Assembly (NCBI GenBank): GCA_043805415.1
Contig: JAZDHZ010000009.1
Location: 13,973-77,972 of the forward strand
Direction: 5' to 3'
From: Candidatus Omnitrophota bacterium
GTDB taxonomy: Bacteria; Omnitrophota; Gorgyraeia; B26-G9
DNA length: 64,000 nt
Of the stretch, positions 34,384 through 50,372 are shown piece after piece. Each line of letters begins with the position of its first letter. Positions within the stretch are counted from its first letter, which is position 1. Both the position numbers and the translations under genes were made by a program. Below the pieces are notes generated by a model. It did no database searches, was not told where the DNA came from, and saw only the letters and a program-made list of their open reading frames with translations.

Positions 34384-36102
34384 ATGCGTAGGACAAAAAA
34401 ACGTCTTAATGAGCTTTTGCTGGATTACAATTTAATAAGCGAAAAAGATGTTATTAGCGCTTTAGAAATTCAGCGCAAAAGAGGCGGACAATTAGCGACA
34501 ATATTAATCGAGGAAAATTTTGTTAAAGAAGAAGATATTGTAACTTGTTTTTGCCGTTATTTAAATGTTCCTCCGATAAACCTTTCCAAATTCCATGGCG
34601 ATGAAAAAAAGATAAAACTTATTCCCGAACACGTTGCAAGACATTATCGTTTGATCTGCATATCGCAAGTTGGTAATATGCTGACAGTAGCGATGTGCGA
34701 TCCTTTGAACGTGCTGGCGATTGATGATATTAAGGCTTTAACGGGTTATGATATTATTCCAGTGGTATCAGCATTGAGCGGGATTACATTAGCGGTTGAT
34801 CGTTTCTATCATCATAAAGAAGAGGTTAAGACTGAAGAAAGTTTTGATGATTTAGTCAAAGAAATCAATGAGGATGATATTCAGCTGGTTAAAGAAATTG
34901 AACAGATTGATATCGGGGATGTTATCAGATCAAGCAGCGAAGCGCCGATAGTCAAGATGCTTGATGCTTTAATCGCTGAAGCATTGATGAAAAGGGCTTC
35001 GGATATTCATATCGAACCATATGAGACAAAAATAAGAGTACGCTATCGAGTTGACGGAGCATTGCAGGAAGCAGCGATTTTACCGAAAAAGATTCAAAAC
35101 GCGATAGCCGCGAGAATAAAGATTATGTCTAACCTGGATATTACGCAAAGGCTTGTTCCTCAGGATGGAAGATTTAAAGTAAGGCTTGGCGATAAAGAAG
35201 TTGATTTTCGTGTTTCTATTTTACCAATCAGTTTTGGGGAAAAAGTGGTAATGCGTGCTTTGGATAAAGCTAATCTTAGTATCGGTCTTGAGGCTTTAGG
35301 TTTTTTGCCGCAAGCAATGGATGCTTTTGCCTACGCGGTTGCTCAGCCTTATGGAATGATTCTGGTAACTGGTCCGACTGGAAGCGGTAAATCAACCACG
35401 CTGTATTCGGTTTTAAATAAACTTAATGTTCCGGAGCGCAATTTGATTACAATCGAAGATCCGGTTGAATATCAGGTAGATGGAATAACCCAGGTCCAAG
35501 TAAAAGCTGATGTCGGGCTTACTTTCGGTCAGGGACTGCGGGCAATTTTACGGCAAAATCCCGATATTCTTATGGTTGGAGAAATTCGTGATTTTGAAAC
35601 CGGAGATATCGCGGTAAAAGCAGCTTTGACTGGAGCCTTGCTGTTAAGCACATTGCATACTAATGATGCTCCGGGAGCGGTAACCCGGCTTATTGATATG
35701 GGCATAGAGCCGTTTCTTATTGCCAGCAGTGTTATTGCTGTCGCGGCGCAGCGGTTAGCACGTTCAATTTGTCCTAATTGCAAGGAGGCTTATAAAATTC
35801 CCCAATCAGTTTTAGATAGAATGGACCTTGTCCTTGACGCGGAAAAAATTACTGTATACAGAGGTAAGGGTTGTGATAAATGCGGAGGAACCGGGTATAA
35901 AGGACGTTTTGCGATTCTCGAAGTAATGGTGGTAAATGATGCAATCAGAGAAATGATAATGAATCGCAATTCCAGTGATGAAATAAAGCGTTATGCCAGG
36001 AAAAAAAACGGGATGTTGACTTTACGCGATTCCGGCATTCAGAATTTTCTTAAAGGTCAGACAACTCTTGAGGAGGTATTAAGAGTAACCTCCAAAGAAT
36101 AA
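34384..36102 (+). CDS. PilB/GspE-family ATPase, paralog 2
   Basis: Same architecture (MshEN-like N-terminus, GPTGSGKST, CPNC…CDKCGGTG); ~40-45% identical to paralog 1. Confidence 0.9.
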   Translation: MRRTKKRLNELLLDYNLISEKDVISALEIQRKRGGQLATILIEENFVKEEDIVTCFCRYLNVPPINLSKFHGDEKKIKLIPEHVARHYRLICISQVGNMLTVAMCDPLNVLAIDDIKALTGYDIIPVVSALSGITLAVDRFYHHKEEVKTEESFDDLVKEINEDDIQLVKEIEQIDIGDVIRSSSEAPIVKMLDALIAEALMKRASDIHIEPYETKIRVRYRVDGALQEAAILPKKIQNAIAARIKIMSNLDITQRLVPQDGRFKVRLGDKEVDFRVSILPISFGEKVVMRALDKANLSIGLEALGFLPQAMDAFAYAVAQPYGMILVTGPTGSGKSTTLYSVLNKLNVPERNLITIEDPVEYQVDGITQVQVKADVGLTFGQGLRAILRQNPDILMVGEIRDFETGDIAVKAALTGALLLSTLHTNDAPGAVTRLIDMGIEPFLIASSVIAVAAQRLARSICPNCKEAYKIPQSVLDRMDLVLDAEKITVYRGKGCDKCGGTGYKGRFAILEVMVVNDAIREMIMNRNSSDEIKRYARKKNGMLTLRDSGIQNFLKGQTTLEEVLRVTSKE

Positions 36103-36216: not shown

Positions 36217-37422
36217 ATGCCTTTATTTAAATACGTTGCAAAAGATGAAGACGGCAATGCTGTTGATGATCTGATCGAAGCAAAAGATGAAATGGTTGCT
36301 CTTGATATGCTCAGAGTTAAAAATCTGATTATTATCTCAATTACTGAGCAAAAGCAAGCGAAAGCCAAGGCCAAAACTGGGGGTAAGAAAATAAAAGCGG
36401 AAGAGCTGGTAATTTTTTCCCGACAGCTGGCAACAATGGTTAATGCTGGAATCCCGCTTGTGCAAAGTCTTGATATCTTAAGTGAGCAAATGGAGAGCAT
36501 AACATTCAGGCATGTAGTAACAACGATCAGGAGTGATGTAGAATCCGGATCTAGTTTGTCAGCTGCTTTGGAAAAACATCCAAAAGTTTTTACCATGCTG
36601 TATACAAATATGGTGCGAGCCGGAGAAACCAGCGGTATGCTGGATGAAATTCTTGAGAGACTTGCTGGTTATTTAGAAAAGAGCGGTTCATTGGCGCGTA
36701 AAGTAAAATCTGCCATGGTTTATCCGGCAGTTGTTTCGATGATGGCTATTGGAATAACCTTAGTTCTATTATTGAAAGTTATTCCGACTTTTAAGGAGAT
36801 ATTTGCTTCTTTGGGCGGCACGCTTCCTTTGCCTACTCAAATATTGATTAATATTTCAGACACTTTACAGGTATATTTTATCTATGTAGTTGCTGCTTTA
36901 GTGGCAATTGGGTTTGCCGTTGCTAAAGTTATACAAACTCCGCAGGGTAAACTGCGTTTTGATCAGCTAAAGCTTGGTTTGCCGGTATTTGGTCCTTTAC
37001 TTAGAAAAGTTGCTGTTGCTCGATTTTCCCGAACACTTTCAACCTTGATCAGAAGCGGCGTGCCGATTTTAGGCGCCTTAGAAATTGTGGGAAAAACATC
37101 AGGCAATGTTGTGATTGAAGCAGCAGTAGAAAGTTCGCGGGTAGGAATTCGCGAAGGAGAAAGTATTGCCTCTCCACTTGCCAAAAGTAAAGCTTTTCCT
37201 CCAATGGTAACCAGAATGATATCAGTTGGCGAGGAATCTGGAGAGCTTGAAAAAATGCTTACAAAAATTGCTGATTTTTATGAGGATCAGGTAGATGCGG
37301 CAGTAAGCGGCTTAACCAGTTTAATTGAGCCATTGATTATTGCTTTTTTAGGTCTTGTTGTTGGATCTATAGTAATTGCCATGTTTTTGCCGATATTCAA
37401 GATCAGTGAACTTATTGGTTAG
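36217..37422 (+). CDS. pilC: type IV pilus inner-membrane platform protein PilC (GspF family)
   Basis: Two T2SSF repeats, 3 TM helices, 401 aa. Confidence 0.9.
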   Translation: MPLFKYVAKDEDGNAVDDLIEAKDEMVALDMLRVKNLIIISITEQKQAKAKAKTGGKKIKAEELVIFSRQLATMVNAGIPLVQSLDILSEQMESITFRHVVTTIRSDVESGSSLSAALEKHPKVFTMLYTNMVRAGETSGMLDEILERLAGYLEKSGSLARKVKSAMVYPAVVSMMAIGITLVLLLKVIPTFKEIFASLGGTLPLPTQILINISDTLQVYFIYVVAALVAIGFAVAKVIQTPQGKLRFDQLKLGLPVFGPLLRKVAVARFSRTLSTLIRSGVPILGALEIVGKTSGNVVIEAAVESSRVGIREGESIASPLAKSKAFPPMVTRMISVGEESGELEKMLTKIADFYEDQVDAAVSGLTSLIEPLIIAFLGLVVGSIVIAMFLPIFKISELIG

Positions 37423-37465
37423 AGCTATAAATATCTGCAATTATTAAACTTAATCCTAGTAAGCT

Positions 37466-37779
37466 GTTTGCAAAAGCATTGACAAAACTTGGTTGCTCAG
37501 GTATACTTATATAAAAGGTATAAGAAAAGTAAAAGTTTTATTTATTTTAGCCTTTTATCGAAATAGCAAACCCACTGAAAAGTGGGGACGTTTCTCTGAG
37601 ATTACTTACTGGTAAACACAGCAATGAAACACCGAATGATTCTACTTCCTTAAATCACATCAATCGGGGCAAAGCCACGGGTCTAATGGTATTCCTTAAT
37701 AGACGGCCGGGTTACCGAAATAAAAAGGAAAAGCCAATGATAGCCGAGCTACCGAAATAAAAGGTAGGTCGGTTTTTTG
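37466..37779 (+). promoter_or_regulatory. Conserved ~300-nt leader, copy A: sigma-70 promoter (TTGACA-17-TATACT), GEMM/c-di-GMP-I riboswitch-like blocks, terminal intrinsic terminator
   Basis: ~95% identical to 41169-41472. Contains GCAAACC-CACUGAAAAGUG-GGGACG (GNRA-capped hairpin as in GEMM P2) and GCAAAGCCACGGGUC; ends in stem-loop CCGAGCTACC…GGTAGGTCGG plus T6. Confidence 0.5.
37744..37778 (+). terminator. intrinsic terminator (expression platform of leader A)
   Basis: 10-bp stem with 1 mismatch, 9-nt loop, TTTTTT; 5' half repeats the aptamer 3' sequence TACCGAAATAAAAGG, suggesting alternative pairing. Confidence 0.5.
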
Positions 37780-37828
37780 CGTTTTATGTTTAACAATTGT
37801 TCGGTAATTTAGGGAAATTAAAAGTGTT

Positions 37829-38236
37829 ATGAAAAAAAATAAAGCATTTACCTTGATTGAACTAATGATTAGTTCTGTTATTCTTGTAGTATGTTTATTT
37901 TCCCTGATCACAAGTTTTATTATGTGTTATGGATTAAGTGAAACAGCAAGAAACACAACTATCGCTACAGAAGACGGGCGGAGGGTTATTGAGGAAATGC
38001 GCAGTACTAGCGCTGAATCTTTGGTTTTAGTTGTAAATGAAGATTGGAGCGCTTGGGCAGCAGCGCATGGTTGTGTTAATTTAGAGCAAGAGCAAATTCT
38101 GGTTACGTATACAGACCGTAATGGCACTGGTGACCCGCTTGATGATGATCCCTTAGAAGTAAGCGTAAACGTGACTTGGCAAGAGCGGGGCCGTTGGCGG
38201 ATTTTAAATTTCAATGTTCTGCTTACGCCTAGATAG
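37829..38236 (+). CDS. type IV minor pilin/pseudopilin-like protein (module A, gene 1)
   Basis: Class III signal MKKNKA|FTLIELM with Glu+5 and hydrophobic helix; Ala at -1. Confidence 0.75.
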   Translation: MKKNKAFTLIELMISSVILVVCLFSLITSFIMCYGLSETARNTTIATEDGRRVIEEMRSTSAESLVLVVNEDWSAWAAAHGCVNLEQEQILVTYTDRNGTGDPLDDDPLEVSVNVTWQERGRWRILNFNVLLTPR

Positions 38237-38280
38237 AGAACGATTATTTTAATATTTTTTTTAAAACAAGAGCTGAGCCG

Positions 38281-38865
38281 ATGAATAAAAAGAAAATTAA
38301 TAAAATAGCTATTTTCACCCGCGCGCCTGAAAGCCGTGGGTATCAACTTGTCAAAATATGGTTTAATGCGCAAGGTTTTACGCTTATAGAGTTAATGGTT
38401 AGTTGTAGTATTTTAGTTATTCTGGTTTCAAGTGTTTTCGCTATATTAACTTCAGGCAGCCGGTTATGGGCAGTTAGTGTGGCTCAGATCGATATTAGCG
38501 CTTCAGCACGTAATGCTATGGCTAGGGTGTTTGATGATCTGTCTCAGGCAGGCCAGGATACAGTAATTGTAAGTCCTGGACATGACGCGATTACTTTTCA
38601 AACGCCTGATTCTTATTCTGGGGGAATTATATCTTGGGGAAATCAAATCCAATATTCCTTAGGCGGTTTAAATGGACAACAACTTTTACGTACTGATTTG
38701 GTGTCGGGAGATGTCCAGGTATGGGGAAATAATATTACCCTATTGCAGCTTGATCAAACTAAAGATGATACGATAGATATCCAAATCACATTAAGTAAAC
38801 AATCGGCTAAGGGTGATATTTTAACTGTACAGCTTGGATCTCAGGTCCGGCTGCGAAATAAATAG
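38281..38865 (+). CDS. type IV minor pilin-like protein (module A, gene 2; PilW-like)
   Basis: …NAQG|FTLIELMV prepilin motif preceded by an unusually long 35-aa leader (no in-frame alternative start). Confidence 0.7.
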   Translation: MNKKKINKIAIFTRAPESRGYQLVKIWFNAQGFTLIELMVSCSILVILVSSVFAILTSGSRLWAVSVAQIDISASARNAMARVFDDLSQAGQDTVIVSPGHDAITFQTPDSYSGGIISWGNQIQYSLGGLNGQQLLRTDLVSGDVQVWGNNITLLQLDQTKDDTIDIQITLSKQSAKGDILTVQLGSQVRLRNK

Positions 38866-38878
38866 GCGGTGAAAAATA

Positions 38879-40582
38879 ATGAAAAAAAAGGATATTTTTG
38901 CGAAAGAGAAAAAAATGGTCTACAGTAATAAGGGAGTGGCTTTAATTGCCGCGTATTTTACTCTCTTAGTTCTGACGATACTTTTTGTTTCTTTTATGGG
39001 CCGAATTTTTACTGAAAGCCGAGCTGCGGGAAGAAATAAGGAGGTCGTAGAAACATCCTATTTAGCTGAAGCAGGAATTGATCAGGTAACAGTTGATTTG
39101 CATAAATTATTCAAAGCTTATTTTATTGCCCAAGGACGCAGAGAAAGCGCTTTTGTCTGGTTTGACGATTTGCCTAATTCGGCTAAATATGTTTTGCCGG
39201 TTAATGCGGCTTTAGGTCCTGGTACGTATACGGTTCAGATAACTGATGTTAATTCTTCTATCTCTTCTCAGCGGGAGATTACATTTGTTTCCACAGCTCA
39301 AATAGATAATATAATAAAGAAAGTGACAGCAGTGATTCGTTATGAATTAGTTTCTTCAGAAGTATTTAAAAATAGCTACTTTGTTAATAATTTTGGCTGG
39401 TTGTGGGGGAATACCATAACCAGTCAAGGCGATATTCGGGCGAACGGCAATTTTAGCTTTGGGACCTATACTCCAACAATTAACGGAGACATTTATGCCG
39501 CGGTAAATCCTGATATCGGTGCGACCGGGGCAATTATTGGTAATAATGATTATGATAATATTACTGATTACCGCGATGATTCCTCAACCGCGGCGCGGCC
39601 AAGTAATCCAAGTGCTGATCCTCAGGATATTAATTTAGACGGAATTATTGAGCAATTTGCTTACGCGGATGGTTATGATGGTGCTAGTGATAAGATATCT
39701 AACCTTGAAGGCGTGGAAATGCCTTATCTCGGAGATCTGCAGGAATATAAAGATATAGCAATCGCGCAAAATGGAACAATATCACAAGGCGGGGCTGTGA
39801 TTGTGACTAATGTGCTGGATACTACAGGAGCCGACACCATTGTATTAATCGGAACAGCGGCAAATCCAATTCAGCTTAACGGTCCGGTAGTAATTGCCGG
39901 TGATGTTCTGATAAAAGGGGTCGTTACCGGACAAGGTACTATTTATTCCGGAAGAAATATTCATATCGGGGGTAATGTAACTTATAAGAATGCGCCTTCT
40001 TGGGTGAAACCTGATACTGACTCCGCGACAACTGATACCCAGGCTGATGCCTGCGATTTTTTAGGCTTGGCGGCAAAGGGAAATATTGTTGTCGGTGATT
40101 ATACCAGCGGTACTTTTAACCTGATAGAAAATTACTTAAAACCGCCTTTTACTCAGCCCTATAAGGTTGACCCCACAGATGCGGGCATTGGCTATGTTTC
40201 CTATACATCAGGGGGGGACTCTTATTTTAATGGTGACTATACCGCTAATGACGGAGGCAGGAAATTTGATTCAGCGGGTAATGACGCGGGGGCACGGAAA
40301 TTTTATGAATCTTCATTAAAAGACAATGAGTTTCGGTCATTTTGTGATAGCGGATTGTTTACGAGAATTGACGCGATATGCTATACAAACCATGCTTTAA
40401 CCGGAAGAATAGGGCAAATGGTTATAAATGGAATAATTGTTTCTCGCGATGAGGCAACTTCGTATTCTGGACATCTGACTTTGAATTATGATATTCGGGC
40501 AAAATCAGACAGATTGGGGAAAAAGATGTATTTGCCGAGAAGTTTGGCTTTGCCGCATACGGTGTATCTGAAAAGAGATTGA
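38879..40582 (+). CDS. large PilX_N-domain minor pilin / putative tip-associated protein (module A, gene 3)
   Basis: N-terminal GVALIAAYFTLLVLTILFVSFMG resembles the PilX N-terminal domain; 567 aa Gly/Asp/Thr-rich; alternative start ATG 38915. Confidence 0.65.
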   Translation: MKKKDIFAKEKKMVYSNKGVALIAAYFTLLVLTILFVSFMGRIFTESRAAGRNKEVVETSYLAEAGIDQVTVDLHKLFKAYFIAQGRRESAFVWFDDLPNSAKYVLPVNAALGPGTYTVQITDVNSSISSQREITFVSTAQIDNIIKKVTAVIRYELVSSEVFKNSYFVNNFGWLWGNTITSQGDIRANGNFSFGTYTPTINGDIYAAVNPDIGATGAIIGNNDYDNITDYRDDSSTAARPSNPSADPQDINLDGIIEQFAYADGYDGASDKISNLEGVEMPYLGDLQEYKDIAIAQNGTISQGGAVIVTNVLDTTGADTIVLIGTAANPIQLNGPVVIAGDVLIKGVVTGQGTIYSGRNIHIGGNVTYKNAPSWVKPDTDSATTDTQADACDFLGLAAKGNIVVGDYTSGTFNLIENYLKPPFTQPYKVDPTDAGIGYVSYTSGGDSYFNGDYTANDGGRKFDSAGNDAGARKFYESSLKDNEFRSFCDSGLFTRIDAICYTNHALTGRIGQMVINGIIVSRDEATSYSGHLTLNYDIRAKSDRLGKKMYLPRSLALPHTVYLKRD

Positions 40583-40598
40583 AATTACTAAGAGAAAG

Positions 40599-41021
40599 GT
40601 GTTGAAAATGAAGGGTGTAAAGTTGTGTATGACAATTATTATACTGCTTTCCCAGACGAATGGAGTGTATGGTTTTTTTCAGGATGATGGAACTGATCCT
40701 CAGCCAGTAATACAAGAAATGGTTGCGCAGCGCCAAGCTATAGAAAAAAGATATATAGCTTATGAAAAACAAAAAGCATTGGAAAAAGAAAAAACAAAAG
40801 AACGCTTATCCTGGACAAAAATCAGGCTTGAGCAAATGCGGGATGCTCAAGGCAGAAAAAATATAAACACCCGATCCAATATGAATATAGAGTCGAAGAA
40901 TGGAAGCCGGAAAAACACAGCAGCAGTTCAATCATTTAAAATTGCTCAAATTATCCTATTAATCGCGGGTTTATTTGGCTGCGTGTTTTGGATATATAAA
41001 ATCAACAAAAAAAAATTGTGA
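40599..41021 (+). CDS. hypothetical signal-peptide protein with C-terminal TM anchor (module A, gene 4)
   Basis: 140 aa; signal peptide, charged coiled region, C-terminal hydrophobic helix. Confidence 0.4.
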   Translation: MLKMKGVKLCMTIIILLSQTNGVYGFFQDDGTDPQPVIQEMVAQRQAIEKRYIAYEKQKALEKEKTKERLSWTKIRLEQMRDAQGRKNINTRSNMNIESKNGSRKNTAAVQSFKIAQIILLIAGLFGCVFWIYKINKKKL

Positions 41022-41168
41022 TCAGATATATAATACTGAATAAAGTTGTTTGAATATTCTTGATTTGCGCGTAATAACTTCGGGAATAGCCTGAGTAATT
41101 TTAAAGAGATGCTGAAAAATATGGAGCATATAAGTATATATAATAATTAAAGTTAATAATAATAAAAT

Positions 41169-41472
41169 GTTTGCAAAAGTATTGACAAGGTTTGGTAGCT
41201 AATGTATACTTATATTATAGGTAAAAGTTTTATTTATTTTACCCTTTTATCGATAATGGCAAACCCACTGAAAAGTGGGGGCGTTTCTCTGAGATTACTT
41301 ACTGGTAAACACAGCAATGAAACACCGAATGATTTTACTTCCTTGAATCGCATCAATCGGGGCAAAGCCACGGGTCTAATGGTGTTCCTTAATAGACGGC
41401 CGGGTTACCGAAATAAAAAGGAAAAGCCAATGATAGCCGAGCTACCGAAATAAAAGGTAGGTCGGTTTTTTG
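41169..41472 (+). promoter_or_regulatory. Conserved ~300-nt leader, copy B (promoter TTGACA-17-TATACT, GEMM-like blocks, terminator)
   Basis: Near-identical to copy A; substitutions cluster in a few short stretches; the 83-aa ORF called across it is probably spurious. Confidence 0.5.
41437..41471 (+). terminator. intrinsic terminator (expression platform of leader B)
   Basis: Same stem-loop plus T6 as copy A. Confidence 0.5.
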
Positions 41473-41499
41473 TCTAAAAAGGGGGAATGGGGAAAGCTT

Positions 41500-41955
41500 A
41501 TGCAAAGAAGAAAAGGTTTTACTCTGGTTGAAATACTGGTTTCAACTGCTATTATGGCGATTGCAATTACATCTACTTTGCAGATTTTAATGTATCTGTT
41601 ACAGATGAATGAAGCAAATCAGGTATCAGTTGCTTGCATGAATAGAGCTCAGGGGATCATGGATGAGATTAAAAGAGTTAATTATGATGATGTGATTACG
41701 CTTTATAATGGAAATCAATTTACTGTTGCTGAGCTGACAAGCAGGAATGTCCGCCATAGCGGAGTAATTTACGCGAATGAAATAGAAGCGGACTTTCTTA
41801 TAGATATAAAAGTAGTTATCAGCTGGGGAAATAGAAATAGAATAATCGGTGAGGATACTAATTTAAATGGGGTTTTAGACATTGGGGAAGATTTAAATGG
41901 AAATGGGCAGATTGATTCACCGGTTATGATTGAGGGCACAATCTTAAATCGGTAG
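41500..41955 (+). CDS. type IV minor pilin-like protein (module B, gene 1)
   Basis: MQRRKG|FTLVEIL prepilin motif. Homologous to 37829 (shared V.V..W.R..RI C-terminal pattern). Start moved to ATG 41500 because 41470 lies inside the terminator T-tract; GGGGGAATGGGGAAAG RBS. Confidence 0.75.
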   Translation: MQRRKGFTLVEILVSTAIMAIAITSTLQILMYLLQMNEANQVSVACMNRAQGIMDEIKRVNYDDVITLYNGNQFTVAELTSRNVRHSGVIYANEIEADFLIDIKVVISWGNRNRIIGEDTNLNGVLDIGEDLNGNGQIDSPVMIEGTILNR

Positions 41956-41974
41956 TCTTAGGGGAGACGCGAAT

Positions 41975-42625
41975 ATGATGAATAGTAAAAAAGCTTATAC
42001 TTTAGCAGAGCTTTTGGTTTCACTTGCAATTTTTACTGTAGTAATCGGTTCTTTGATGAGTATTTTAATTTCGCAAAATGCTTTTTTTAGCCGCGCCTCA
42101 GCCGCGGTAGATGTGGGGGGTAAAGCGCGCAGAGTAATGACGCTTATGGTTAAAGAACTTCGTTTGGCTAAGCAAGAGGTTGTTAATGTTTATGACCGGC
42201 CTTTAGACCAACCGGGAGTGAGTCTTGATCATACTAACGGCAAGAGCATTGTGTTTCAATTCCCTGTGGATTGGGATGGCGATGGAGATAAATTCGATGA
42301 GTGGGGGAGAATAGAATGGGGTTGTGAAGGCGGACTTGACTGGTCAATTGAATATTATTATGATAGTGTCAATCAAAGAGTAATGCGGCGTGTATGGGAT
42401 GCCGCAAATACCGCGCAGTCTGAAACTGTGGTTGCTGAAGATATCAGTAATTTTTTAATCCAAGGGTTCCAGTATGATTCATCTTTGCAGACATATATAT
42501 TGCACTCAGCTTGTGAAATTATTGAAATAAATATTACCGCGCAAAGAGATAGTATTTCAGGCAGAACATTAGATTCACCCTTGACTTATAGTTTAATTAA
42601 TCGGGTTACCTGGCGGAATAATTAA
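41975..42625 (+). CDS. type IV minor pilin-like protein (module B, gene 2; PilW-like)
   Basis: MMNSKKA|YTLAELLV motif (Ala -1, Tyr +1, Glu +5); homologous to 38281. Confidence 0.7.
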   Translation: MMNSKKAYTLAELLVSLAIFTVVIGSLMSILISQNAFFSRASAAVDVGGKARRVMTLMVKELRLAKQEVVNVYDRPLDQPGVSLDHTNGKSIVFQFPVDWDGDGDKFDEWGRIEWGCEGGLDWSIEYYYDSVNQRVMRRVWDAANTAQSETVVAEDISNFLIQGFQYDSSLQTYILHSACEIIEINITAQRDSISGRTLDSPLTYSLINRVTWRNN

Positions 42626-42650
42626 TTTTTTTTAAATAAGGAGAAACGCA

Positions 42651-45425
42651 ATGAGAATGATTACTAATAGAAAAGGAACGATTCTTGTAGCAACCTATAT
42701 GGTATTATGCGTGATCATTGTTGTTGCCAGTTCATTTTTCTCCATGGTGCTGACTGACAATAAAACAGTGGCAAGAGACAATGATGGAGCGCGAGCTTTA
42801 TCCAATGCCGAACGGGGAATTGCCTATGCTTATTTTGAAGCGAATAAAATGGGCTGGGATTGGTACACTCATGAATGGAATGGATCTAAAAAAAAATTAA
42901 TCCCTATTCCTCCAGCTCAAAGGGTGCTCACTAGGGCTGATTTGAGTTTTAACAGTGATAAATTTGTTGAACATAATTCAGGCAGTTTTATGCTCAAGGC
43001 TTATCCTGATGCTACACGTGAAAATGATACGGTTGTTGTTTCCATGGGGATTTGCGGAAAAGAGCGAAGAGTGCTGATGTATTATTTAACTCGCCGGGGA
43101 ATCTATGATTTTTTTATATACACTCCGTATGATTTAGATCTTTACGATGCCGTAGGCCATCATCCGCTGTTAAATGGCGGAGGCATACATTCAAATGGAG
43201 ATATTCATATTGATAGTTATATGCGGCTGGAAGATATTTCAGAATTAAGTGCTGGAGCAAGCGGAAATATTTACTATGAAGGAAGTCAATATATACCACC
43301 TTATTATGCTGATCGTCTGGATAGTGTGATGGATGGGAAGTCGCCCATCACAAGGCTGGATAAAATGGCTGATGTATTTCGTGATGATACGATAAATCAA
43401 GCCGGGCCATTTGGATATTATAATGCTTATGGTCAATGGCAATGGGATAGCGGAGCAACTTATTTTGTCTATACAGATAATGGCTTGAGAAATTCTTTTC
43501 AAAGTACAGAAGGGCATTTCGCGGGTTCTGTATTAGATATTTATAATGTGAATCCTGGGCAGACCAGCGGGGGTGCTAAGAATGATAGTGGCGGTATTTT
43601 AAATTCTCAAAATGCCTGGATAAAACCTTATATGCTGGATTCTGAGGGCAATCAGATTGATAAGACTTGGGTAGAGATTCCCGCGGAAATGGACACTGAA
43701 TGGGGTTGGGATAAATATGGCTGGAACAACTATGGGACTGTTGCGGGTGAGCAGCCAGTTAGTTTTTATACATATAAAGATGATGGAACTCAGGTTGATG
43801 TAGCCAATACTTATTGGGAAATAAATGCCAGCAATAAAGTGGAAATGCTTGATCCGCCAATCGGCGGGACTCCGGAAGAGTGGGCGGTTTTTAACGCGGC
43901 GCACCCAGAGGCTAAACAGTATTGGGATATGTACGCTACTCCTGAGTTTTGGAAAGCAAATTATAATAATGCTTATTATGAATATTTAGCAGATATGATT
44001 AACCCCGAAATGCTAGACGGAACTTATGGAGATGAGCGTTTAAATAGTGATATTTTGATGGTTAAGCATACAAATTCGGAAAAACAACCAGATGATTGGA
44101 AGGCTTTTCTTTCGTCTTCGGGTTTGGATGGGATAGTGCGTGATGGAAATACTGGAGGAGAGTATTTAGAACCGCCTGATTTTGATACCACATATTCACG
44201 CTTAGCGGAAAGAGATGGGCTATATATAGATTTAGATTCAAGTTTTGATGGAAATTTTGATGATTATGATGAATGGCAGGAAGTGCTGGAAAAAAGCATT
44301 GATAACGCGGTAAACTCGCTTAATCAGGGAACCGCTACGCATGATGTAGCTAAAAAAGTTAAATTTATCAACACCTTTACAGGCGAGTGGAATGTTGTTT
44401 TAGAAATAGATTTTAAGAACATGCAAACACAAAGCAGATATCCCTCCAATGGTATTTTATACACAAAAGTTCCGATTAGAATTACTAATGCCGCTGAGCT
44501 TGCCCGGGCAAAACCAAAATACGGGTTTACTATTTTAGGAGAAGAAAATATTTATCTGCAAGGAGATTATAATACTGATCAATGGGTAACCAGCGCGGTT
44601 ATTTCCAAAAAACGCATATTTACTTTGTCAGATGATTTTAATGATCCGCAGGTTAAACCAGCTTTAGAACATTATCCGGATTACCCCTATCTTTATGTTA
44701 AAGATGATGGATCTGGAAATTATGCTGAGGTGCCGAAAACAACTTCCGGCGGACAGTGGGTAATTATTGATTACTTGGACGATGATGGATTTGTTGATAA
44801 ACTAGATTATTATGCTGGAATTAATGATACAAACGAAGCTAGTTTGCGGTCAATAATCTTAGCAAAGGAAAATGACTATCGCAGTGTTTTTAATAAGCCT
44901 GATCCCAGCGGCAGTGTTGAGGATACCTGGACATGGTCTGGTACTGGAGAAAGCTATACTTCAGGGATGATGCCCAATACGGTAAGTCAGGATCATACTT
45001 ATAACGCGCTTATGTCAACTAATCGCTGGTTAGACACTTATCAGAGTAATAAAGGCGATATTCTAGAGAACTGGTCTTATCTGGTAGGGGCTAGTACTGT
45101 GAATAAACGTCGTAATTTAAACGGAGCATTTTTTGTTCTGGAAAACTCAAATGTCGGTGGATTTACTGCTGCTAATAATGAGTTTGTTGATTATCGAAAT
45201 GAGTCAGGTTTAGGTTATGATCAGCGTGGCCGTTCTGCTGGCACAGGAGATAATTTTTCATATAACAGAGGTTCTTTTTTGCGGACTTATGACGCGCAAG
45301 AAGCCATGTCCTATGATGAGCAGTTTAAAACAGCAACCAGGGCTCCTTCGGATGTGTTTTTTGGCGGAGCTGAATCTTTATGGTCTGAGACAACGGAGGC
45401 TTTCTTTTATCAGTTGAATTTCTAG
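42651..45425 (+). CDS. giant PilX_N-domain protein (924 aa), putative pilus-tip adhesin (module B, gene 3)
   Basis: N-terminal KGTILVATYMVLCVIIVVASSFFSMVL PilX_N-like helix; remainder Asp/Gly/Tyr/Trp-rich with no recognisable domain. Confidence 0.65.
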   Translation: MRMITNRKGTILVATYMVLCVIIVVASSFFSMVLTDNKTVARDNDGARALSNAERGIAYAYFEANKMGWDWYTHEWNGSKKKLIPIPPAQRVLTRADLSFNSDKFVEHNSGSFMLKAYPDATRENDTVVVSMGICGKERRVLMYYLTRRGIYDFFIYTPYDLDLYDAVGHHPLLNGGGIHSNGDIHIDSYMRLEDISELSAGASGNIYYEGSQYIPPYYADRLDSVMDGKSPITRLDKMADVFRDDTINQAGPFGYYNAYGQWQWDSGATYFVYTDNGLRNSFQSTEGHFAGSVLDIYNVNPGQTSGGAKNDSGGILNSQNAWIKPYMLDSEGNQIDKTWVEIPAEMDTEWGWDKYGWNNYGTVAGEQPVSFYTYKDDGTQVDVANTYWEINASNKVEMLDPPIGGTPEEWAVFNAAHPEAKQYWDMYATPEFWKANYNNAYYEYLADMINPEMLDGTYGDERLNSDILMVKHTNSEKQPDDWKAFLSSSGLDGIVRDGNTGGEYLEPPDFDTTYSRLAERDGLYIDLDSSFDGNFDDYDEWQEVLEKSIDNAVNSLNQGTATHDVAKKVKFINTFTGEWNVVLEIDFKNMQTQSRYPSNGILYTKVPIRITNAAELARAKPKYGFTILGEENIYLQGDYNTDQWVTSAVISKKRIFTLSDDFNDPQVKPALEHYPDYPYLYVKDDGSGNYAEVPKTTSGGQWVIIDYLDDDGFVDKLDYYAGINDTNEASLRSIILAKENDYRSVFNKPDPSGSVEDTWTWSGTGESYTSGMMPNTVSQDHTYNALMSTNRWLDTYQSNKGDILENWSYLVGASTVNKRRNLNGAFFVLENSNVGGFTAANNEFVDYRNESGLGYDQRGRSAGTGDNFSYNRGSFLRTYDAQEAMSYDEQFKTATRAPSDVFFGGAESLWSETTEAFFYQLNF

Positions 45426-45462
45426 TTTTAAAATAAATCGATATTAAATCATTGGGGGAAAT

Positions 45463-45876
45463 ATGGACCATAAAGTAAAAATAACATTAGCCACAACCGG
45501 GGTCTTGTTGTTATTGATTATTGCTACCGGACTATACTCGACGTTTAATCCTAAATCAGTCAAAACAGAGCTGCTTAATGAAATAAGCAAGACAGCGCCG
45601 GTTTATAAACAAGGATCTAAAGTAGGGTTAGGCTCAAAAGCGAAAACTAATGTTAAAGAAAACTCTTATTATTTTCTTGATAAAAAAGTTGAAAGAGCGC
45701 AAGTTGATCCCCATGACAACTTAAACGCTAACAATGATGAACTTGATGATTTTTTTGTATCGGATATTTCTGAGCCGATTGATATGGTGGCAAATTTTGA
45801 TGATGATTATGTTCAAGCGCCTGAAATTGATATATCGATGAATGAGGCTGAACTTGATCATCCGATGGAAAATTAA
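45463..45876 (+). CDS. hypothetical membrane-anchored acidic protein (module B, gene 4)
   Basis: 137 aa, N-terminal TM helix, strongly acidic C-terminal half. Confidence 0.4.
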   Translation: MDHKVKITLATTGVLLLLIIATGLYSTFNPKSVKTELLNEISKTAPVYKQGSKVGLGSKAKTNVKENSYYFLDKKVERAQVDPHDNLNANNDELDDFFVSDISEPIDMVANFDDDYVQAPEIDISMNEAELDHPMEN

Positions 45877-45941
45877 GATAAAGAAATTTAGATTTTTAGG
45901 GCTAATATGAGTTTTAGCTGATTTAAGAGGAAGAACTGAAG

Positions 45942-47234
45942 TTGACTTTTTGTTCTTCCTCTTTTATAATGGGGTCAATGCAAGTAGACAGAAATTCAAT
46001 CTATTCAGTAATTTTTTTCCGATTTGCCATTGTTACAGTGATTTTCATTGTCAATACTACGCTTTTTGGCTTGGGGCGTATCCCGGTTTATTTTATAATT
46101 ACAGCGGTTTATGGTTTGACTCTAGTTTATTCCTTGCTGAATTTAGCAAATATATTTAATCCTAAATTTTTGTATGTACAGATTTTTCTGGATTTAGTTT
46201 TAGAAACATTGCTTGTGCATTATACCGGGGGGATTAATTCAGTACTTAGTATTTTGTTTCCGCTTTCCAGTATAGCCGCGAGTATTATAATTTCACCGGC
46301 AGCGGCAATAGTTATTGCTCTTTTAGGCAGTATTATGTATGCTGGAGTAGTGACTATGGAGCAATTGAATGTTTTTGCTTTGCCGTCGATCGGGATAAAT
46401 GAGCTGGCAATGCCTGACGCGTATGTTTTCTCCTTATTGTATTTTCGGGTCACGGTGTTTATTGTGATTGGTTTTTTGAGTTCATATATTGCCGATCAGC
46501 TGAGAAAGCAAAATAAAGTTGTTTTGTCCTTACAGGAAAAATTGCGGCGAGAAGACAGGTTATCGGCGATTGGTAAGCTGGCGGCAAGTACTGCTCACGA
46601 GATACGCAATCCCTTGGCATCGATATCCGGCTGTGTGGAAGCATTAAAAGATTCAGTTGCTTTGCAAGATAAAGATAAAAAATTATTCAATCTTATTTTA
46701 AAGGAAACCGCGCGTTTAAATGATATTATTAATGGTTTGCTTGAATATGTTAAACCCAGGCAGCTAAAGCTGGAAAAAATATCAATTGATGAGCTGGTTG
46801 ATGAAGTTGTTTTTTTGCTGAAAAGCAGCAATAAATTTAAAGATGACATAGTAATTAAAAAAGAAAATTCTCTTCCGGAGATAAAAATCAGTTGCGATCC
46901 GCAGCAGATCAAACAGGTGTTATTCAATTTACTGATAAACGCGGTGGAGGCAATTGAAAAACAAGGGAAAATTATTATCCGGCAAAAAGCTAGTGAAGAT
47001 ATTGAAGGGATTGAGCTGGAGATATCGGATAATGGGATTGGAATGTCTAAAGAGCAATTAGGCACTCTTTTTGAACCATTCTCAAGTCATAAAGATAAAG
47101 GGGTCGGCTTGGGGCTGCCGATAGTAAGTACAATTATAAAAGAACACGGCGGCAGTATTAATATCCAAAGCAAGTTAGGTAAGGGCAGCACATTCCGGAT
47201 CTTCTTACCAGCTAAAATAAAAATAAAGGAATAG
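45942..47234 (+). CDS. pilS: PilS-like polytopic sensor histidine kinase
   Basis: ~6 N-terminal TM helices, HisKA (STAHEIRNPLASI), HATPase N/G1/G2 boxes; directly upstream of a sigma-54 activator. Confidence 0.75.
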   Translation: MTFCSSSFIMGSMQVDRNSIYSVIFFRFAIVTVIFIVNTTLFGLGRIPVYFIITAVYGLTLVYSLLNLANIFNPKFLYVQIFLDLVLETLLVHYTGGINSVLSILFPLSSIAASIIISPAAAIVIALLGSIMYAGVVTMEQLNVFALPSIGINELAMPDAYVFSLLYFRVTVFIVIGFLSSYIADQLRKQNKVVLSLQEKLRREDRLSAIGKLAASTAHEIRNPLASISGCVEALKDSVALQDKDKKLFNLILKETARLNDIINGLLEYVKPRQLKLEKISIDELVDEVVFLLKSSNKFKDDIVIKKENSLPEIKISCDPQQIKQVLFNLLINAVEAIEKQGKIIIRQKASEDIEGIELEISDNGIGMSKEQLGTLFEPFSSHKDKGVGLGLPIVSTIIKEHGGSINIQSKLGKGSTFRIFLPAKIKIKE

Positions 47235-49092: not shown

Positions 49093-49156
49093 CTAATAAC
49101 ATTGGTCTTAACTATTTGATAATTTGTAATTGGTAAACAATGAAAGGGGTGTTAGT

Positions 49157-49660
49157 ATGAATCGTAAGGGCTTTACATTGGTAGAAATCATGATCGTTGT
49201 AGCTATTATTGCTTTGTTGGCAGCAATTGCTATCCCTAACCTTATGCGTGCAAGACTTAACGCAAATGAATCAGCAGCTCAGTCTACATTAAAAACTGTA
49301 GCAACAGCGGTTGAAAGTTTTAGGGCAGCGCAAACTAATCCAACTTATCCGCCTTCTTCAACTGTAGCTGGAGTTGTGGGATTAACTGATGGAACCGCGG
49401 CTTCTCCTTCTTATTGTGATGCTGGAATTTTTGCTGCAGCCGGAAGACAAGGTTATATTTTTACTTATACACAATTGGGAACAGTTCTTGGACAGCAGTA
49501 TGTTGCTTCTTGTCAGCCTGTAACTTTTGGAGTAACTGGAATAAGAACATTTTCAATTAATGAAACTGGAGTGCTTAGAGCTTCAGCAGCTAATGCAGCC
49601 GCTATAACAGCTAGTCCAATCACTACACTTGCATATGCAGCTTTGACACCTGTTCAATAA
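49157..49660 (+). CDS. pilA: type IVa major pilin PilA (paralog 1)
   Basis: MNRKG|FTLVEIMIVVAIIALLAAIAIPNL, textbook T4a prepilin N-terminus; C-terminal Cys pair; AAAGGGG RBS. Confidence 0.9.
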   Translation: MNRKGFTLVEIMIVVAIIALLAAIAIPNLMRARLNANESAAQSTLKTVATAVESFRAAQTNPTYPPSSTVAGVVGLTDGTAASPSYCDAGIFAAAGRQGYIFTYTQLGTVLGQQYVASCQPVTFGVTGIRTFSINETGVLRASAANAAAITASPITTLAYAALTPVQ

Positions 49661-49681
49661 TTGATTAAACTGAAAACTAAA

Positions 49682-49718
49682 AGAGGGATTGTATAGAAAT
49701 ATATGATCCCTCTTTTTT
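49682..49718 (+). terminator. intrinsic terminator after pilA1
   Basis: AGAGGGAT…ATCCCTCT 8-bp stem followed by TTTTTT. Confidence 0.75.
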
Positions 49719-49816
49719 ATTTCAGGTTATTGTTGAGCTGAAATATGTTTTTTGTTATAATAAATCATGGGATTTAGTTTGGGGTAATTAAGTTTTAATT
49801 AGCGAAAGGTAATAAT

Positions 49817-50320: not shown

Positions 50321-50372
50321 GGCGGATTGTGCTAAATGTATATAATAAAATCGTAAAAGAAAGAATTATGGG

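What the first reader, a model, noticed from the sequence alone, without database searches (positions are those of the whole stretch)
37466..45876. Tandem duplication of a complete five-part minor-pilin module
Module A (37466-41021) and module B (41169-45876) have the same order: leader RNA, ~140-aa pilin with a V.V..W..R..RI C-terminus, ~200-aa PilW-like pilin, PilX_N-like giant protein (567 vs 924 aa), and a small single-TM protein.

Genes 1 and 2 are clearly homologous between modules. The giant proteins share only the N-terminal helix, and the small terminal proteins are unrelated. This suggests two alternative priming / tip complexes, possibly different adhesins, each under its own riboswitch-like leader. 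One pilus machine could then be decorated with different tips depending on signal. The two leaders differ at a handful of positions and could differ in ligand affinity.
Basis: seen in the sequence. Interest (0 to 1): 0.62.

Follow-up and report, generated by a model that had tools for sequence, protein, structure and literature searches.

The report
Two riboswitch-gated pilus tip operons
In an uncultured Omnitrophota bacterium, two neighbouring operons for alternative type IV pilus tip proteins each follow a nearly identical cyclic-dinucleotide riboswitch; the two switches differ at the nucleotide that, in studied relatives, decides between c-di-GMP and cGAMP, so one pilus machine may get different tips under different signals.

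Summary
The two modules exist at the stated coordinates, but this is not a tandem duplication of a complete module. Only the ~310-nt leader is duplicated at the DNA level: 97% identity from aptamer to terminator, and no DNA similarity in the coding parts.

The genes are ancient paralogues. Pilin 1, pilin 2 and the first ~190 residues of each giant protein are homologous gene for gene; the small proteins are unrelated.

Module B is the resident minor-pilin set between pilC and pilSR in all related Omnitrophota clusters. Module A belongs to a family found across the PVC group and is present, absent or located elsewhere in close relatives.

Giant A is predicted with confidence as a ComZ-like tip pilin, with a GspK-like pilin domain plus an ice-binding-protein-like beta-solenoid. 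Both giant families lack Glu5.

Each leader has a promoter, a c-di-GMP-I (GEMM-I) aptamer carrying a 79-nt two-hairpin expansion, and an intrinsic terminator.

The leaders evolve in concert within each genome yet keep one difference: nucleotide 20 is A in leader A and G in leader B. The same split appears in five MAGs. Published work shows A20/G20 switches cGAMP versus c-di-GMP selectivity.

The likely mechanism is two differently tuned, probably OFF-type, switches that select the pilus tip set. Ligand identity and switch direction are inferred, not shown.

The parts
37479..37507 (+). Promoter of module A (TTGACA-17-TATACT)
   Evidence: One of the three promoter-like sites matching 11 of 12 positions in 37300-46100. 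It lies inside the duplicated leader block.
37551..37728 (+). Leader A aptamer: GEMM-I (c-di-GMP-I class) with P1, P2 (GAAA loop) and P3, plus an expansion
   Evidence: Rfam E-value search gives RF03167 at 29.4 bits, plus the P2 hairpin at 22.2 bits; both are below gathering score. My own covariance model scores the two halves at 59 and 36 bits. The structure is 96.9% paired across 10 leaders.
37565..37565 (+). Nucleotide equivalent to Vc2 position 20 is A in leader A (the GEMM-Ib signature)
   Evidence: It lies immediately 5' of the P2 base 'GC'. The position was mapped through Rfam alignments. Its role comes from PMC6140456 and PMC6456294.
37591..37669 (+). 79-nt expansion (hairpins Pi1 and Pi2) inserted between the equivalents of G45 and C46
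   Evidence: The Pi1 closing stem covaries (U-A to C-G).
37743..37778 (+). Intrinsic terminator of leader A (GCCGAGCUACC / GGUAGGUCGG followed by U6)
   Evidence: Predicted in the MFE and the RNAalifold consensus, with all ten stem pairs kept in the 10 leaders compared.
37829..38236 (+). Pilin 1A (135 aa; prepilin with Ala-1 and Glu5)
   Evidence: Pfam N_methyl. Homologous to pilin 1B over its full length.
38281..38865 (+). Pilin 2A (194 aa; 31-residue leader peptide; Glu5)
   Evidence: Pfam N_methyl. hhalign against pilin 2B gives E 3e-18.
38879..40582 (+). Tip pilin A (567 aa), ComZ-like: N-terminal helix, GspK-like pilin domain, ice-binding-protein-like beta-solenoid; no Glu5
40599..41021 (+). 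Small protein A (140 aa, C-terminal TM segment)
   Evidence: Conserved only in close relatives.
41182..41210 (+). Promoter of module B (TTGACA-17-TATACT)
41243..41421 (+). Leader B aptamer: GEMM-I with expansion
   Evidence: Rfam RF01051 at 38.8 bits (gathering score 35) over 41248-41412, modelled with an 84-nt insertion. Also.
41258..41258 (+). Nucleotide 20 is G in leader B (canonical c-di-GMP pocket)
41284..41362 (+). 79-nt expansion (Pi1 and Pi2) of leader B
41436..41471 (+). Intrinsic terminator of leader B
41500..41955 (+). Pilin 1B (151 aa from ATG 41500)
41975..42625 (+). Pilin 2B (216 aa)
42651..45425 (+). Tip pilin B (924 aa): pilin domain homologous to tip pilin A, then ~730 residues of uncharacterised fold; no Glu5
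   Evidence: hhalign E 2e-11. AF2 pLDDT 65.6 overall, with the N-terminal domain predicted well. The family has 24 close members, all in Omnitrophota where a source names the organism, and 308 representatives in a profile search.
45463..45876 (+). Small protein B (137 aa, N-terminal TM segment)

Best explanation
The locus holds two paralogous minor-pilin 'tip' operons. Each encodes pilin 1, pilin 2, a GspK/ComZ-like capping pilin with a large surface domain, and a small membrane protein. They sit side by side between pilC and pilSR of a type IVa pilus cluster in a Candidatus Omnitrophota MAG.

Each operon is its own transcription unit: a sigma-70-type promoter, a GEMM-I (c-di-GMP-I class) aptamer enlarged by two hairpins, an intrinsic terminator, then the genes.

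Module B is the ancestral resident set. Module A belongs to a mobile family spread across the PVC group. Its leader in this lineage has been overwritten or homogenised by leader B, except at the ligand-contacting nucleotide 20.

Leader B (G20, A47, C92) should bind c-di-GMP specifically and tightly. Leader A (A20) should bind 3',3'-cGAMP and/or bind c-di-GMP more weakly.

Ligand binding locks the aptamer and frees the terminator's 5' strand. Without ligand, that strand is sequestered by aptamer strands. The terminator then forms and transcription stops, so this would be an OFF switch.

The two tip sets would therefore be transcribed over different messenger conditions, allowing one pilus machine to be primed and capped by different tip complexes.

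Shown here: gene content, homologies, fold of tip pilin A, aptamer class, terminators, the conserved A/G difference, and concerted evolution of the leaders.

Inferred: ligand identities and affinities, OFF direction, tip location, and function of the surface domains.
For: - Context is a complete T4aP cluster with PilT, two PilB, PilC, PilSR, three pilins, PilMOPQ and a GGDEF protein.
- The aptamers belong to the c-di-GMP-I class.
- The proposed structure is 96.9% paired versus 28-52% when slid, with 5 compensatory pairs. The leader A fold has z = -4.4.
- The promoters are among the three best-scoring sites (11 of 12) in the scanned region.
- Leaders resemble each other within a genome more than they resemble their orthologues. 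winA-winB is 96.9% versus winB-L001B 94.3%; L002A-L002B is 85.7% versus 81.6% or lower for L002B against other genomes' B leaders and 83.4% or lower for L002A. Position 20 is nevertheless A/G in both genomes. The chance that the same column differs in both pairs is about 0.004.
- In five MAGs an A20 aptamer precedes an A-type-associated pilin operon while a G20 aptamer precedes module B.
- Tally: A-type leaders 8 A / 8 G; B-type leaders 0 A / 13 G; Fisher p = 0.003.
- Literature: G20 reads G-alpha by Hoogsteen pairing; GEMM-Ib has A at that position; Vc2 G20A is bispecific (Kd 53 nM c-di-GMP, 120 nM cGAMP), whereas wild type binds c-di-GMP at picomolar Kd and cGAMP at 10 uM. A20G flips Gmet_0970 from cGAMP to c-di-GMP selectivity, and GEMM-Ib riboswitches precede pilus assembly genes in Geobacter. 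The pilM cGAMP switch is a further precedent.
- OFF logic: in transcripts cut before the terminator's 3' strand, the MFE always pairs the terminator's 5' strand with aptamer strands. Enforcing the aptamer costs 0.5-7.7 kcal/mol. Compact A20 leaders (L005, L071) have the classical design in which the aptamer tail is complementary to the terminator's 5' strand, as described for Cd1.
- Tip pilins: ComZ, GspK and ice-binding-protein fold matches, absence of Glu5, and the ComZ tip model.
Against: - No cGAMP synthase was seen. The only GGDEF in the window has Asp with GGEEF, the canonical diguanylate cyclase combination. The rest of the genome was not available.
- Half of the A-type leaders elsewhere carry G20, so A20 is not required for module A.
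- Leader A is dispensable in relatives: the aptamer is deleted in L001 and absent in L004.
- The expansion sits next to the binding pocket and could alter or abolish binding.
- The B-type expression platform is unusual: the terminator's 5' strand is a direct repeat of the aptamer's 3' half. The OFF direction rests only on thermodynamic folding.
- Leader A scores below Rfam gathering thresholds.
- Covariation is modest because the 10 leaders are closely related.
- The tip pilin B model is of low confidence beyond about residue 150.
Confidence: 0.6

Rival explanations
1. Both leaders sense only c-di-GMP, and the A/G difference at position 20 is functionally neutral. The two modules would then be co-regulated, redundant or additive minor-pilin sets.
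For: - The leaders are 97% identical, and all helices and A47/C92 are shared.
- The only cyclase seen is a canonical diguanylate cyclase.
- A-type modules elsewhere carry G20 in 8 of 16 leaders.
- Natural A20 aptamers can still bind c-di-GMP through a protonated adenine.
Against: - Position 20 stays A/G in both genomes despite homogenisation of the rest of the leader.
- A20 never occurs before a B module (0 of 13), and A20 coexists with G20 in five MAGs.
- In the published cases cited here, a G/A exchange at this position changed affinity or selectivity.
Confidence: 0.2
2. Leader A is a decaying pseudo-riboswitch, and module A is on its way out or is simply read through from pilC. Only module B would be truly regulated.
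For: - The closest relative, L001, has lost the leader A aptamer and kept only the terminator.
- L004 has no aptamer before module A.
- L084 keeps a decayed leader scar where module A has been lost.
- Leader A falls below Rfam gathering thresholds.
Against: - In the window, leader A has an intact promoter, P1, P2, P3, Pi1, Pi2 and terminator. None of its 7 differences from leader B breaks a helix.
- L002, about 71% identical at the protein level, keeps the same intact A20 leader.
- Module A ORFs are intact and conserved.
Confidence: 0.1
3. One reading: a recent tandem duplication of a complete five-part module, followed by divergence of the adhesin genes.
For: The modules have the same gene order and the same leader. 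True tandem B-B duplications do exist in other Omnitrophota (L091, L092).
Against: - There is no DNA similarity outside the leader, and protein identity is 17-28%.
- Giant A and giant B belong to different families with very different distributions: PVC-wide versus a narrow Omnitrophota clade.
- B-only clusters occur in close relatives, including ones with PilC 92-95% identical.
- In one MAG, module A is on a different contig from module B.
Confidence: 0.05

Closest known systems
GEMM-Ib 3',3'-cGAMP riboswitches of Geobacter (Gs1761/pgcA, Gmet_0970, pilM)
   Same: - GEMM-I fold with A at position 20 and with A47 and C92 retained.
- Located upstream of pilus genes.
- Regulation by transcription termination.
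- A single A20/G20 change switches selectivity.
   Different: - The phylum is Omnitrophota, not Desulfuromonadota.
- A 79-nt two-hairpin expansion lies between G45 and C46.
- The switch is probably OFF rather than ON as in pilM.
- It is paired in the same locus with a near-identical G20 copy.
- No Hypr GGDEF was found in the available sequence.
- Ligand binding is untested.
c-di-GMP-I riboswitches Vc2 (V. cholerae) and Cd1 (C. difficile flgB leader)
   Same: Leader B has the canonical G20/A47/C92 pocket, a GAAA loop on P2 and an Rfam RF01051 hit. As in Cd1, the aptamer and a separate terminator can coexist and compete with an antiterminator.
   Different: - It carries the expansion segment.
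- The terminator's 5' strand is a 22-nt direct repeat of the aptamer's 3' half.
- It controls minor pilins, not flagella or tfoX.
ComZ-PilA2 competence pilus tip of Thermus thermophilus (PDB 6QVI)
   Same: Tip pilin A has the same two-domain design: a GspK-like pilin domain plus an ice-binding-protein-like triangular beta-solenoid. It is encoded next to small minor pilins.
   Different: There is no detectable sequence similarity. DNA binding is unknown. The setting is a riboswitch-controlled operon in a different phylum.
GspH/I/J/K pseudopilus tip and FimU-PilVWX(-PilY1) priming complex
   Different: - There are only two small pilins per module, and no PilY1.
- Pilin 1 and pilin 2 cannot be assigned to GspI/J or PilV/W by sequence.
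- Complex formation was not tested.
Verru_Chthon cassette (TIGR02596-02600) of Verrucomicrobia/Chthoniobacter
   Same: It is a multi-copy PVC cassette of prepilin-like proteins plus a very large protein A. There are weak N-terminal hits to proteins C and A.
   Different: The scores are far below the curated cut-offs (30.9 versus 256.5 bits; 11.7 versus 332.3 bits), so these modules are not members.

Membership tests
Rfam c-di-GMP-I (RF01051, GEMM-I) | Covariance-model score at or above the gathering score (35 bits) | tested here: inconclusive
   Leader B scores 38.8 bits and passes. Leader A has no hit at gathering score; the best clan hit is RF03167 at 29.4 bits against a threshold of 59. The 79-nt expansion is what lowers both scores. 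Compact relatives score 67 bits.
Rfam c-di-GMP-I (RF01051, GEMM-I) | P1/P2/P3 junction with a GNRA loop on P2 | tested here: met
   P2 has a GAAA loop, and P1 and P3 are intact in both leaders. The structure is 96.9% paired across 10 leaders. The tetraloop receptor was not examined.
Rfam c-di-GMP-I (RF01051, GEMM-I) | Pocket nucleotides G20, A47 and C92 | tested here: inconclusive
   Leader B has G at 41258, A47 at 41364 and the ACCGAA tail, so it meets the feature. Leader A has A at 37565 in place of G20, with A47 (37671) and the tail present.
GEMM-Ib (cGAMP riboswitch subclass) | A at position 20 in an otherwise GEMM-I pocket | tested here: met
   This holds for leader A and for the compact relatives L005, L009, L019, L071 and L010.
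GEMM-Ib (cGAMP riboswitch subclass) | Selective binding of 3',3'-cGAMP | not testable with these tools
   This needs in-line probing or ITC.
GEMM-Ib (cGAMP riboswitch subclass) | A cGAMP synthase (Hypr GGDEF with Ser348, or a DncV-like enzyme) in the same genome | tested here: inconclusive
   All five GGDEF motifs found in the window and loci have Asp at that position. The whole genome was not available.
ComZ-like tip pilin | Pilin domain with a large beta-solenoid domain | tested here: met
ComZ-like tip pilin | DNA binding and partner-pilin binding | not testable with these tools
   No complex prediction or binding assay was available.
GspK/PilX-type capping pilin | Hydrophobic N-terminal helix with Gly-1 but no Glu5 | tested here: met
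   Gly is conserved (33 of 36 and 19 of 21 sequences), and position +5 is V/A/I/S or A in both giant families. Glu5 is invariant in the pilin 1 and pilin 2 families.
GspK/PilX-type capping pilin | Pfam PilX_N (PF14341) match | tested here: not met
   Neither window protein matches at E <= 1. A few homologues of giant A carry a precomputed PF14341 hit, and NCBI names some of them 'PilX N-terminal domain-containing'.
Type IV prepilins | N-terminal cleavage/methylation motif (PF07963) | tested here: met
   All four small pilins match at E 8e-8 to 9e-6, above the cut-off.
Verru_Chthon cassette | TIGR02599/TIGR02600 score above the curated cut-off | tested here: not met
   30.9 versus 256.5 bits, and 11.7 versus 332.3 bits.

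The most novel reading that the evidence does not exclude
Omnitrophota would run two cyclic-dinucleotide channels in one cell: 3',3'-cGAMP read by A20 aptamers and c-di-GMP read by G20 aptamers. In this lineage the two channels would be wired to near-identical, concertedly evolving leaders that choose which ComZ-like tip complex caps the same type IVa pilus. That would amount to a messenger-selected change of what the pilus binds (host cell, surface or DNA) in a phylum of putative epibionts or predators. In addition, the GEMM-I fold would tolerate a variable 0-125-nt two-hairpin expansion next to its ligand pocket, possibly acting as a folding timer or decoy.
Probability: 0.3. Interest if true: 0.82.

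Novelty: new variant of a known kind. Interest (0 to 1): 0.66.

Why it matters
Type IVa pili are nearly universal in Omnitrophota and are thought to mediate attachment to host cells (PMC10066038). How they are regulated, and what they bind, is unknown.

This locus offers a simple, testable design. Two interchangeable tip-pilin sets are each gated by a riboswitch, and the two riboswitches differ at a nucleotide where a single change has been shown to flip cGAMP versus c-di-GMP selectivity.

- If the A20 leaders bind cGAMP, riboswitch-mediated cGAMP signalling would extend well beyond Geobacter and its relatives, and the signal would be linked to the choice of pilus tip.
- If they only bind c-di-GMP more weakly, the pair is a natural two-threshold switch.

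Either way, the near-identical leader pair is a ready-made natural experiment on riboswitch specificity. The expansion between G45 and C46 is an architectural variant of GEMM-I that lowers Rfam scores and makes leader A invisible to standard annotation.

Tried and rejected
- **Recent whole-module duplication:** rejected on DNA self-comparison and on distribution of the families.
- **The 83-aa ORF inside leader B (41202-41453) as a real gene:** rejected. It lies entirely within the riboswitch, and no ORF of 50 aa or more is present on the + strand in the 97%-identical leader A.
- **Assigning pilin 1 and pilin 2 to GspI/J or PilV/W:** only the N-terminal helix matches in Pfam, NCBIfam and PDB profile searches.
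- **Sequence-level link of the giants to solved structures:** none found.
- **Hypr GGDEF in the cluster:** the GAF-GGDEF at 51204 is canonical.
- **An antiterminator formed by the terminator's 3' strand with the aptamer's 3' strand:** considered and judged unlikely, because by manual pairing the terminator's own 5' strand is both closer and pairs better.
- **A metagenome pattern scan for more leaders:** it returned only three usable loci and one spurious GC-rich hit.
- **Papers by Kellenberger 2015 and Ren 2015:** not held in the library.
- **MAFFT alignment of compact and expanded aptamers together:** structurally inconsistent. I trimmed the expansion to build covariance model R1.
- **Fold search with the tip pilin B model:** uninformative because the model is of low confidence.

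Full report
**Where the window comes from and what surrounds the finding.** The 567-aa protein at 38879-40582 is identical to NCBI locus V1747_02745 of a Candidatus Omnitrophota MAG. The window has 38% G+C. The finding sits inside a complete type IVa pilus cluster:
- response regulator, PilT, and a stand-alone MshEN-domain protein
- two PilB ATPases, both with MshEN domains, and PilC (36217-37422)
- the two modules
- PilS and PilR (sigma-54 type)
- three pilin genes and a GAF-GGDEF cyclase
- PilM, PilO, a PilP-like protein, and the PilQ secretin

**Checking the observation.** The ORFs are as described. Pilins 1A, 2A, 1B and 2B all carry the prepilin N-methylation motif.

The two leaders align from 37466/41169 to the end of a terminator. 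From the start of the aptamer to the U-tract they differ at only 7 of 226-227 positions, or 96.9% identity. Outside the leader, blastn finds no DNA similarity between the modules, and pairwise protein identities are 17-28%.

Family profiles built from orthologues in related loci show gene-for-gene homology:

| Comparison | Result |
|---|---|
| Pilin 1A vs pilin 1B | E 6e-12 over 111 columns |
| Pilin 2A vs pilin 2B | E 3e-18 over 166 columns |
| Pilin 1 vs pilin 2 | only the first 29-56 residues align |
| Giant A vs giant B | A 12-194 with B 2-193, probability 97.3, E 2e-11 |
| Small A vs small B | unrelated, probability 0.4 |

So the giants share the whole pilin domain, not just the helix. 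The small proteins have their single hydrophobic segment at opposite ends. Pilin 1B most likely starts at ATG 41500, as its orthologues do.

**This is not a tandem duplication of a module.** Giant A belongs to a large family. It has 402 hits in the word-indexed search and 326 confirmed places in one-genome-per-species contigs. These span Omnitrophota, Planctomycetota-labelled MAGs, Kiritimatiellia, Lentisphaeria and Verrucomicrobiota, often with several copies per contig. Giant B has only 24 close relatives, all in Omnitrophota where a source names the organism. A profile search reaches 308 more distant representatives that share the N-terminal ~240 residues and a central block.

Synteny settles the history:
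- PilC-leader-module B-PilS, with no module A, occurs in L084, L085, L086, L087, L089 and L093. This includes relatives whose PilC is 92-95% identical to the window's.
- A+B occurs in the window, L001, L002 and L004/L006/L090.
- In MAG GCA_024231215, module A stands alone on one contig (L005) while module B is in the pilus cluster on another (L086).
- L084 carries a decayed leader upstream of its intact one, a scar of a lost module.

Genuine B-B tandems do exist elsewhere (L091, L092). Module B is therefore resident and module A is an accessory paralogue placed next to it. Only the leader looks recently copied or homogenised.

**The proteins.** The AlphaFold2 model of giant A is confident: pLDDT 90.9, with helix 18-84, a pilin sheet at 110-159, then a beta-solenoid.
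- Foldseek's only significant PDB matches are the three chains of ComZ from Thermus thermophilus (E 9e-9).

This is the domain pair described for ComZ: a GspK-like pilin domain plus an FfIBP-like solenoid. ComZ is argued to fit only at the pilus tip and binds PilA2 and DNA (PMC6561018).

Both giant families keep Gly-1 but have no Glu at +5, whereas Glu5 is invariant in pilins 1 and 2. From my own knowledge of GspK, the absence of Glu5 is what is expected of the capping subunit. The giant B model is weak overall (pLDDT 65.6), but its N-terminal helix and sheet are well predicted. There is no sequence-level match to solved structures. Pilins 1 and 2 cannot be assigned to GspI/J or PilV/W.

**The leaders.** Each starts with TTGACA-17-TATACT; these two sites are among the three best promoter-like matches (11 of 12) in the scanned region.

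Leader B is called c-di-GMP-I by Rfam at 38.8 bits (gathering score 35), but only by treating 84 nt as an insertion. Leader A is below threshold. Reading the sequence, the order of elements is:
1. The P1 5' strand, nucleotide 20, and a canonical P2 (GC-AAA-CCCACU-GAAA-AGUGGG-GRC-G).
2. A 79-nt insertion.
3. C-AAA-GCC..., a canonical P3, the ACCGAA tail and the P1 3' strand.
4. About 25 nt of linker.
5. A 10-bp hairpin followed by U6.

The insertion lies exactly between the equivalents of Vc2 G45 and C46 and forms two hairpins. Across 10 distinct leaders the full model is 96.9% paired, against 28-52% when partners are slid. Compensatory changes occur in P2, in the Pi1 closing stem and in Pi2. 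RNAfold predicts Pi1 and Pi2 in the aptamer-enforced fold of each of the six leaders folded individually.

Related Omnitrophota aptamers have no insertion (L086, L093, L005, L071) or insertions of other sequence and length at the same site:
- roughly 45-50 nt in L010, L011 and L012
- about 60 nt in L091
- roughly 80 nt in L085
- about 75 nt and about 125 nt in the two leaders of L092

. The insertion is therefore a variable expansion segment, not an essential part of the pocket.

**The key difference.** Rfam alignments place the nucleotide just 5' of the P2 'GC' at model position 11, where the consensus is G. The 'GGC' variant family shows that A47 is the first A after GACGC, which fixes the numbering so that this nucleotide is Vc2 G20 (inference).
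- Leader A has A there (37565); leader B has G (41258).
- L002, whose module proteins are about 55-76% identical to the window's, shows the same split.
- So does GCA_024231215 with compact aptamers on different contigs: L005 has A and L086 has G.
- The JBDRPX MAG (L071/L091) and the CAYTGV MAG (L011/L006) also show it.

In total, 8 of 16 leaders associated with A-type modules have A20, and 0 of 13 B-type leaders do. Fisher p is 0.003, not corrected for phylogeny, and L011 is atypical in its tail.

Within a genome the A and B leaders resemble each other more than they resemble their orthologues: 96.9% versus 94.3% in the window, and 85.7% versus 83.4% or lower in L002. The P3 sequences of L002A and L002B are identical to each other but differ from the window's P3. 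That is concerted evolution or repeated copying. The A/G difference nevertheless survives in both genomes. The chance that the same column differs in both pairs is about 0.004.

**What position 20 means.** The published findings are:
- G20 reads the Hoogsteen face of G-alpha, and cGAMP riboswitches have A there.
- Vc2 G20A binds both ligands (53 nM c-di-GMP, 120 nM cGAMP). Wild type binds c-di-GMP at picomolar Kd and cGAMP at 10 uM (PMC6140456).
- A20G converts Gmet_0970 from cGAMP-selective to c-di-GMP-selective. GEMM-Ib riboswitches precede pilus assembly genes in Geobacter (PMC6456294).
- The pilM leader is a cGAMP ON switch (PMC9262584).

It follows that leader B should be a specific, tight c-di-GMP sensor. 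Leader A should respond to cGAMP, or to c-di-GMP only at higher concentration. This is inference; nothing here measures binding. I found no cGAMP synthase. The cluster's GGDEF has GHQEGD...GGEEF, the canonical cyclase combination, but only 64 kb of this genome was visible.

**Direction of the switch.** In compact A20 leaders (L005, L071), the aptamer tail CUACCG is complementary to the terminator's 5' strand CGGUAG. This is the classical arrangement in which ligand binding frees that strand and termination follows. It matches the Cd1 description.

In the window-type leaders, the terminator's 5' half is instead a 22-nt direct repeat of the aptamer's 3' half. It is therefore complementary to the aptamer's 5' strands. 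In transcripts truncated before the terminator's 3' strand, the minimum-energy fold always sequesters the terminator's 5' strand:
- with the P1 5' strand and nucleotides 20-22 in winA, winB and L084B
- with the Pi2 3' strand, J2/3 and the P3 5' strand in L002A, L002B and L004B

Enforcing the aptamer costs 0.5-7.7 kcal/mol, well within ligand-binding energy. I therefore favour an OFF switch at about 60%, on thermodynamic grounds only.

**Biological reading.** One pilus machine has two alternative GspK/ComZ-like caps with their partner pilins. Each cap set is transcribed from its own promoter and gated by its own cyclic-dinucleotide switch, and the two switches are tuned differently.

The cluster is wired for c-di-GMP at other levels too: MshEN domains on both PilB proteins and on a separate protein, and a diguanylate cyclase.

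Type IVa pili are near-universal in Omnitrophota and have been proposed to attach these very small cells to hosts. In my term search, that study returned no occurrence of 'riboswitch' or 'c-di-GMP' (PMC10066038), and my literature searches found no description of these leaders.

**Verdict.**
- The interpretation (alternative tips under separate switches) is largely supported.
- The speculative remark about ligand affinity turns out to be the most interesting part.
- The pieces are each of a known kind. The combination and the aptamer expansion make it a new variant.
- Ligand identities, switch direction and tip location remain to be tested.

Noticed in passing
window 41202-41453 (+); L001 12236-12487; L092 2702-2935: An 83-aa ORF lies wholly inside the leader B riboswitch and is called as a gene in related assemblies. 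No ORF of 50 aa or more is present on the + strand in the 97%-identical leader A, so it is almost certainly spurious.
   Followed up: partly
window 32007-32621, 32650-34362, 34384-36102, 51204-52475: The pilus cluster is wired for c-di-GMP at several levels. It has a stand-alone MshEN-domain protein, two PilB ATPases with MshEN domains, and a GAF-GGDEF cyclase with the canonical GHQEGD/GGEEF residues.
   Followed up: partly
L084 7960-8190: A decayed copy of the leader (mutated P2 base and P3, terminator kept) lies about 400 nt upstream of the intact leader B. It looks like the scar of a lost module A.
   Followed up: partly
L001 8830-8915; L004 8607-8913: In the closest relative, leader A has lost its aptamer and keeps only a P3 fragment and the terminator. 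In L004, module A has an unrelated upstream region with no aptamer.
   Followed up: partly
L091 6817-15846; L092 2956-12806: True tandem B-B module duplications exist in other Omnitrophota. L091 has one leader for both modules. L092 has a leader before each module (both G20); the second carries an insertion of about 125 nt and a giant-first gene order.
   Followed up: partly
L008 5323-13821: Three A-type tip-pilin genes lie within 16 kb, and two of them are preceded by compact G20 riboswitches. Arrays of riboswitch-gated tip modules seem common in this phylum.
   Followed up: no
L052 8671-8764: The aptamer before an A-type module in a Planctomycetota-labelled MAG reads GCGAAGCC. This is the A47G change of the Rfam 'c-di-GMP-I-GGC' variant.
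   Followed up: no
window 37630-37636, 37714-37719, 37751-37756 (and the equivalents in leader B): The motif (A/U)CCGAA occurs three times per leader: in the Pi2 5' strand, the aptamer tail and the terminator 5' strand. It has one complement, UUCGG/AUCGG, in the Pi2 3' strand. A conserved linker CCAAUGAU(A/C)GCC has no assigned partner. The role of these repeats is unexplained.
   Followed up: partly
window 38281-38373; 37829-37846; 41975-41995: Pilin 2A has an unusually long prepilin leader peptide of 31 residues. Pilin 1A and pilin 2B have Ala instead of Gly at position -1, and pilin 2B has Tyr at +1.
   Followed up: no
window 38281-40582: There are weak N-terminal NCBIfam hits to 'Verru_Chthon cassette' proteins C and A, a multi-copy PVC cassette of prepilin-like proteins. 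The scores are far below the cut-offs.
   Followed up: partly
window 49130-50849: Three consecutive pilin genes (176, 167 and 158 aa) lie downstream of PilSR. Which of them is the major subunit was not examined.
   Followed up: no
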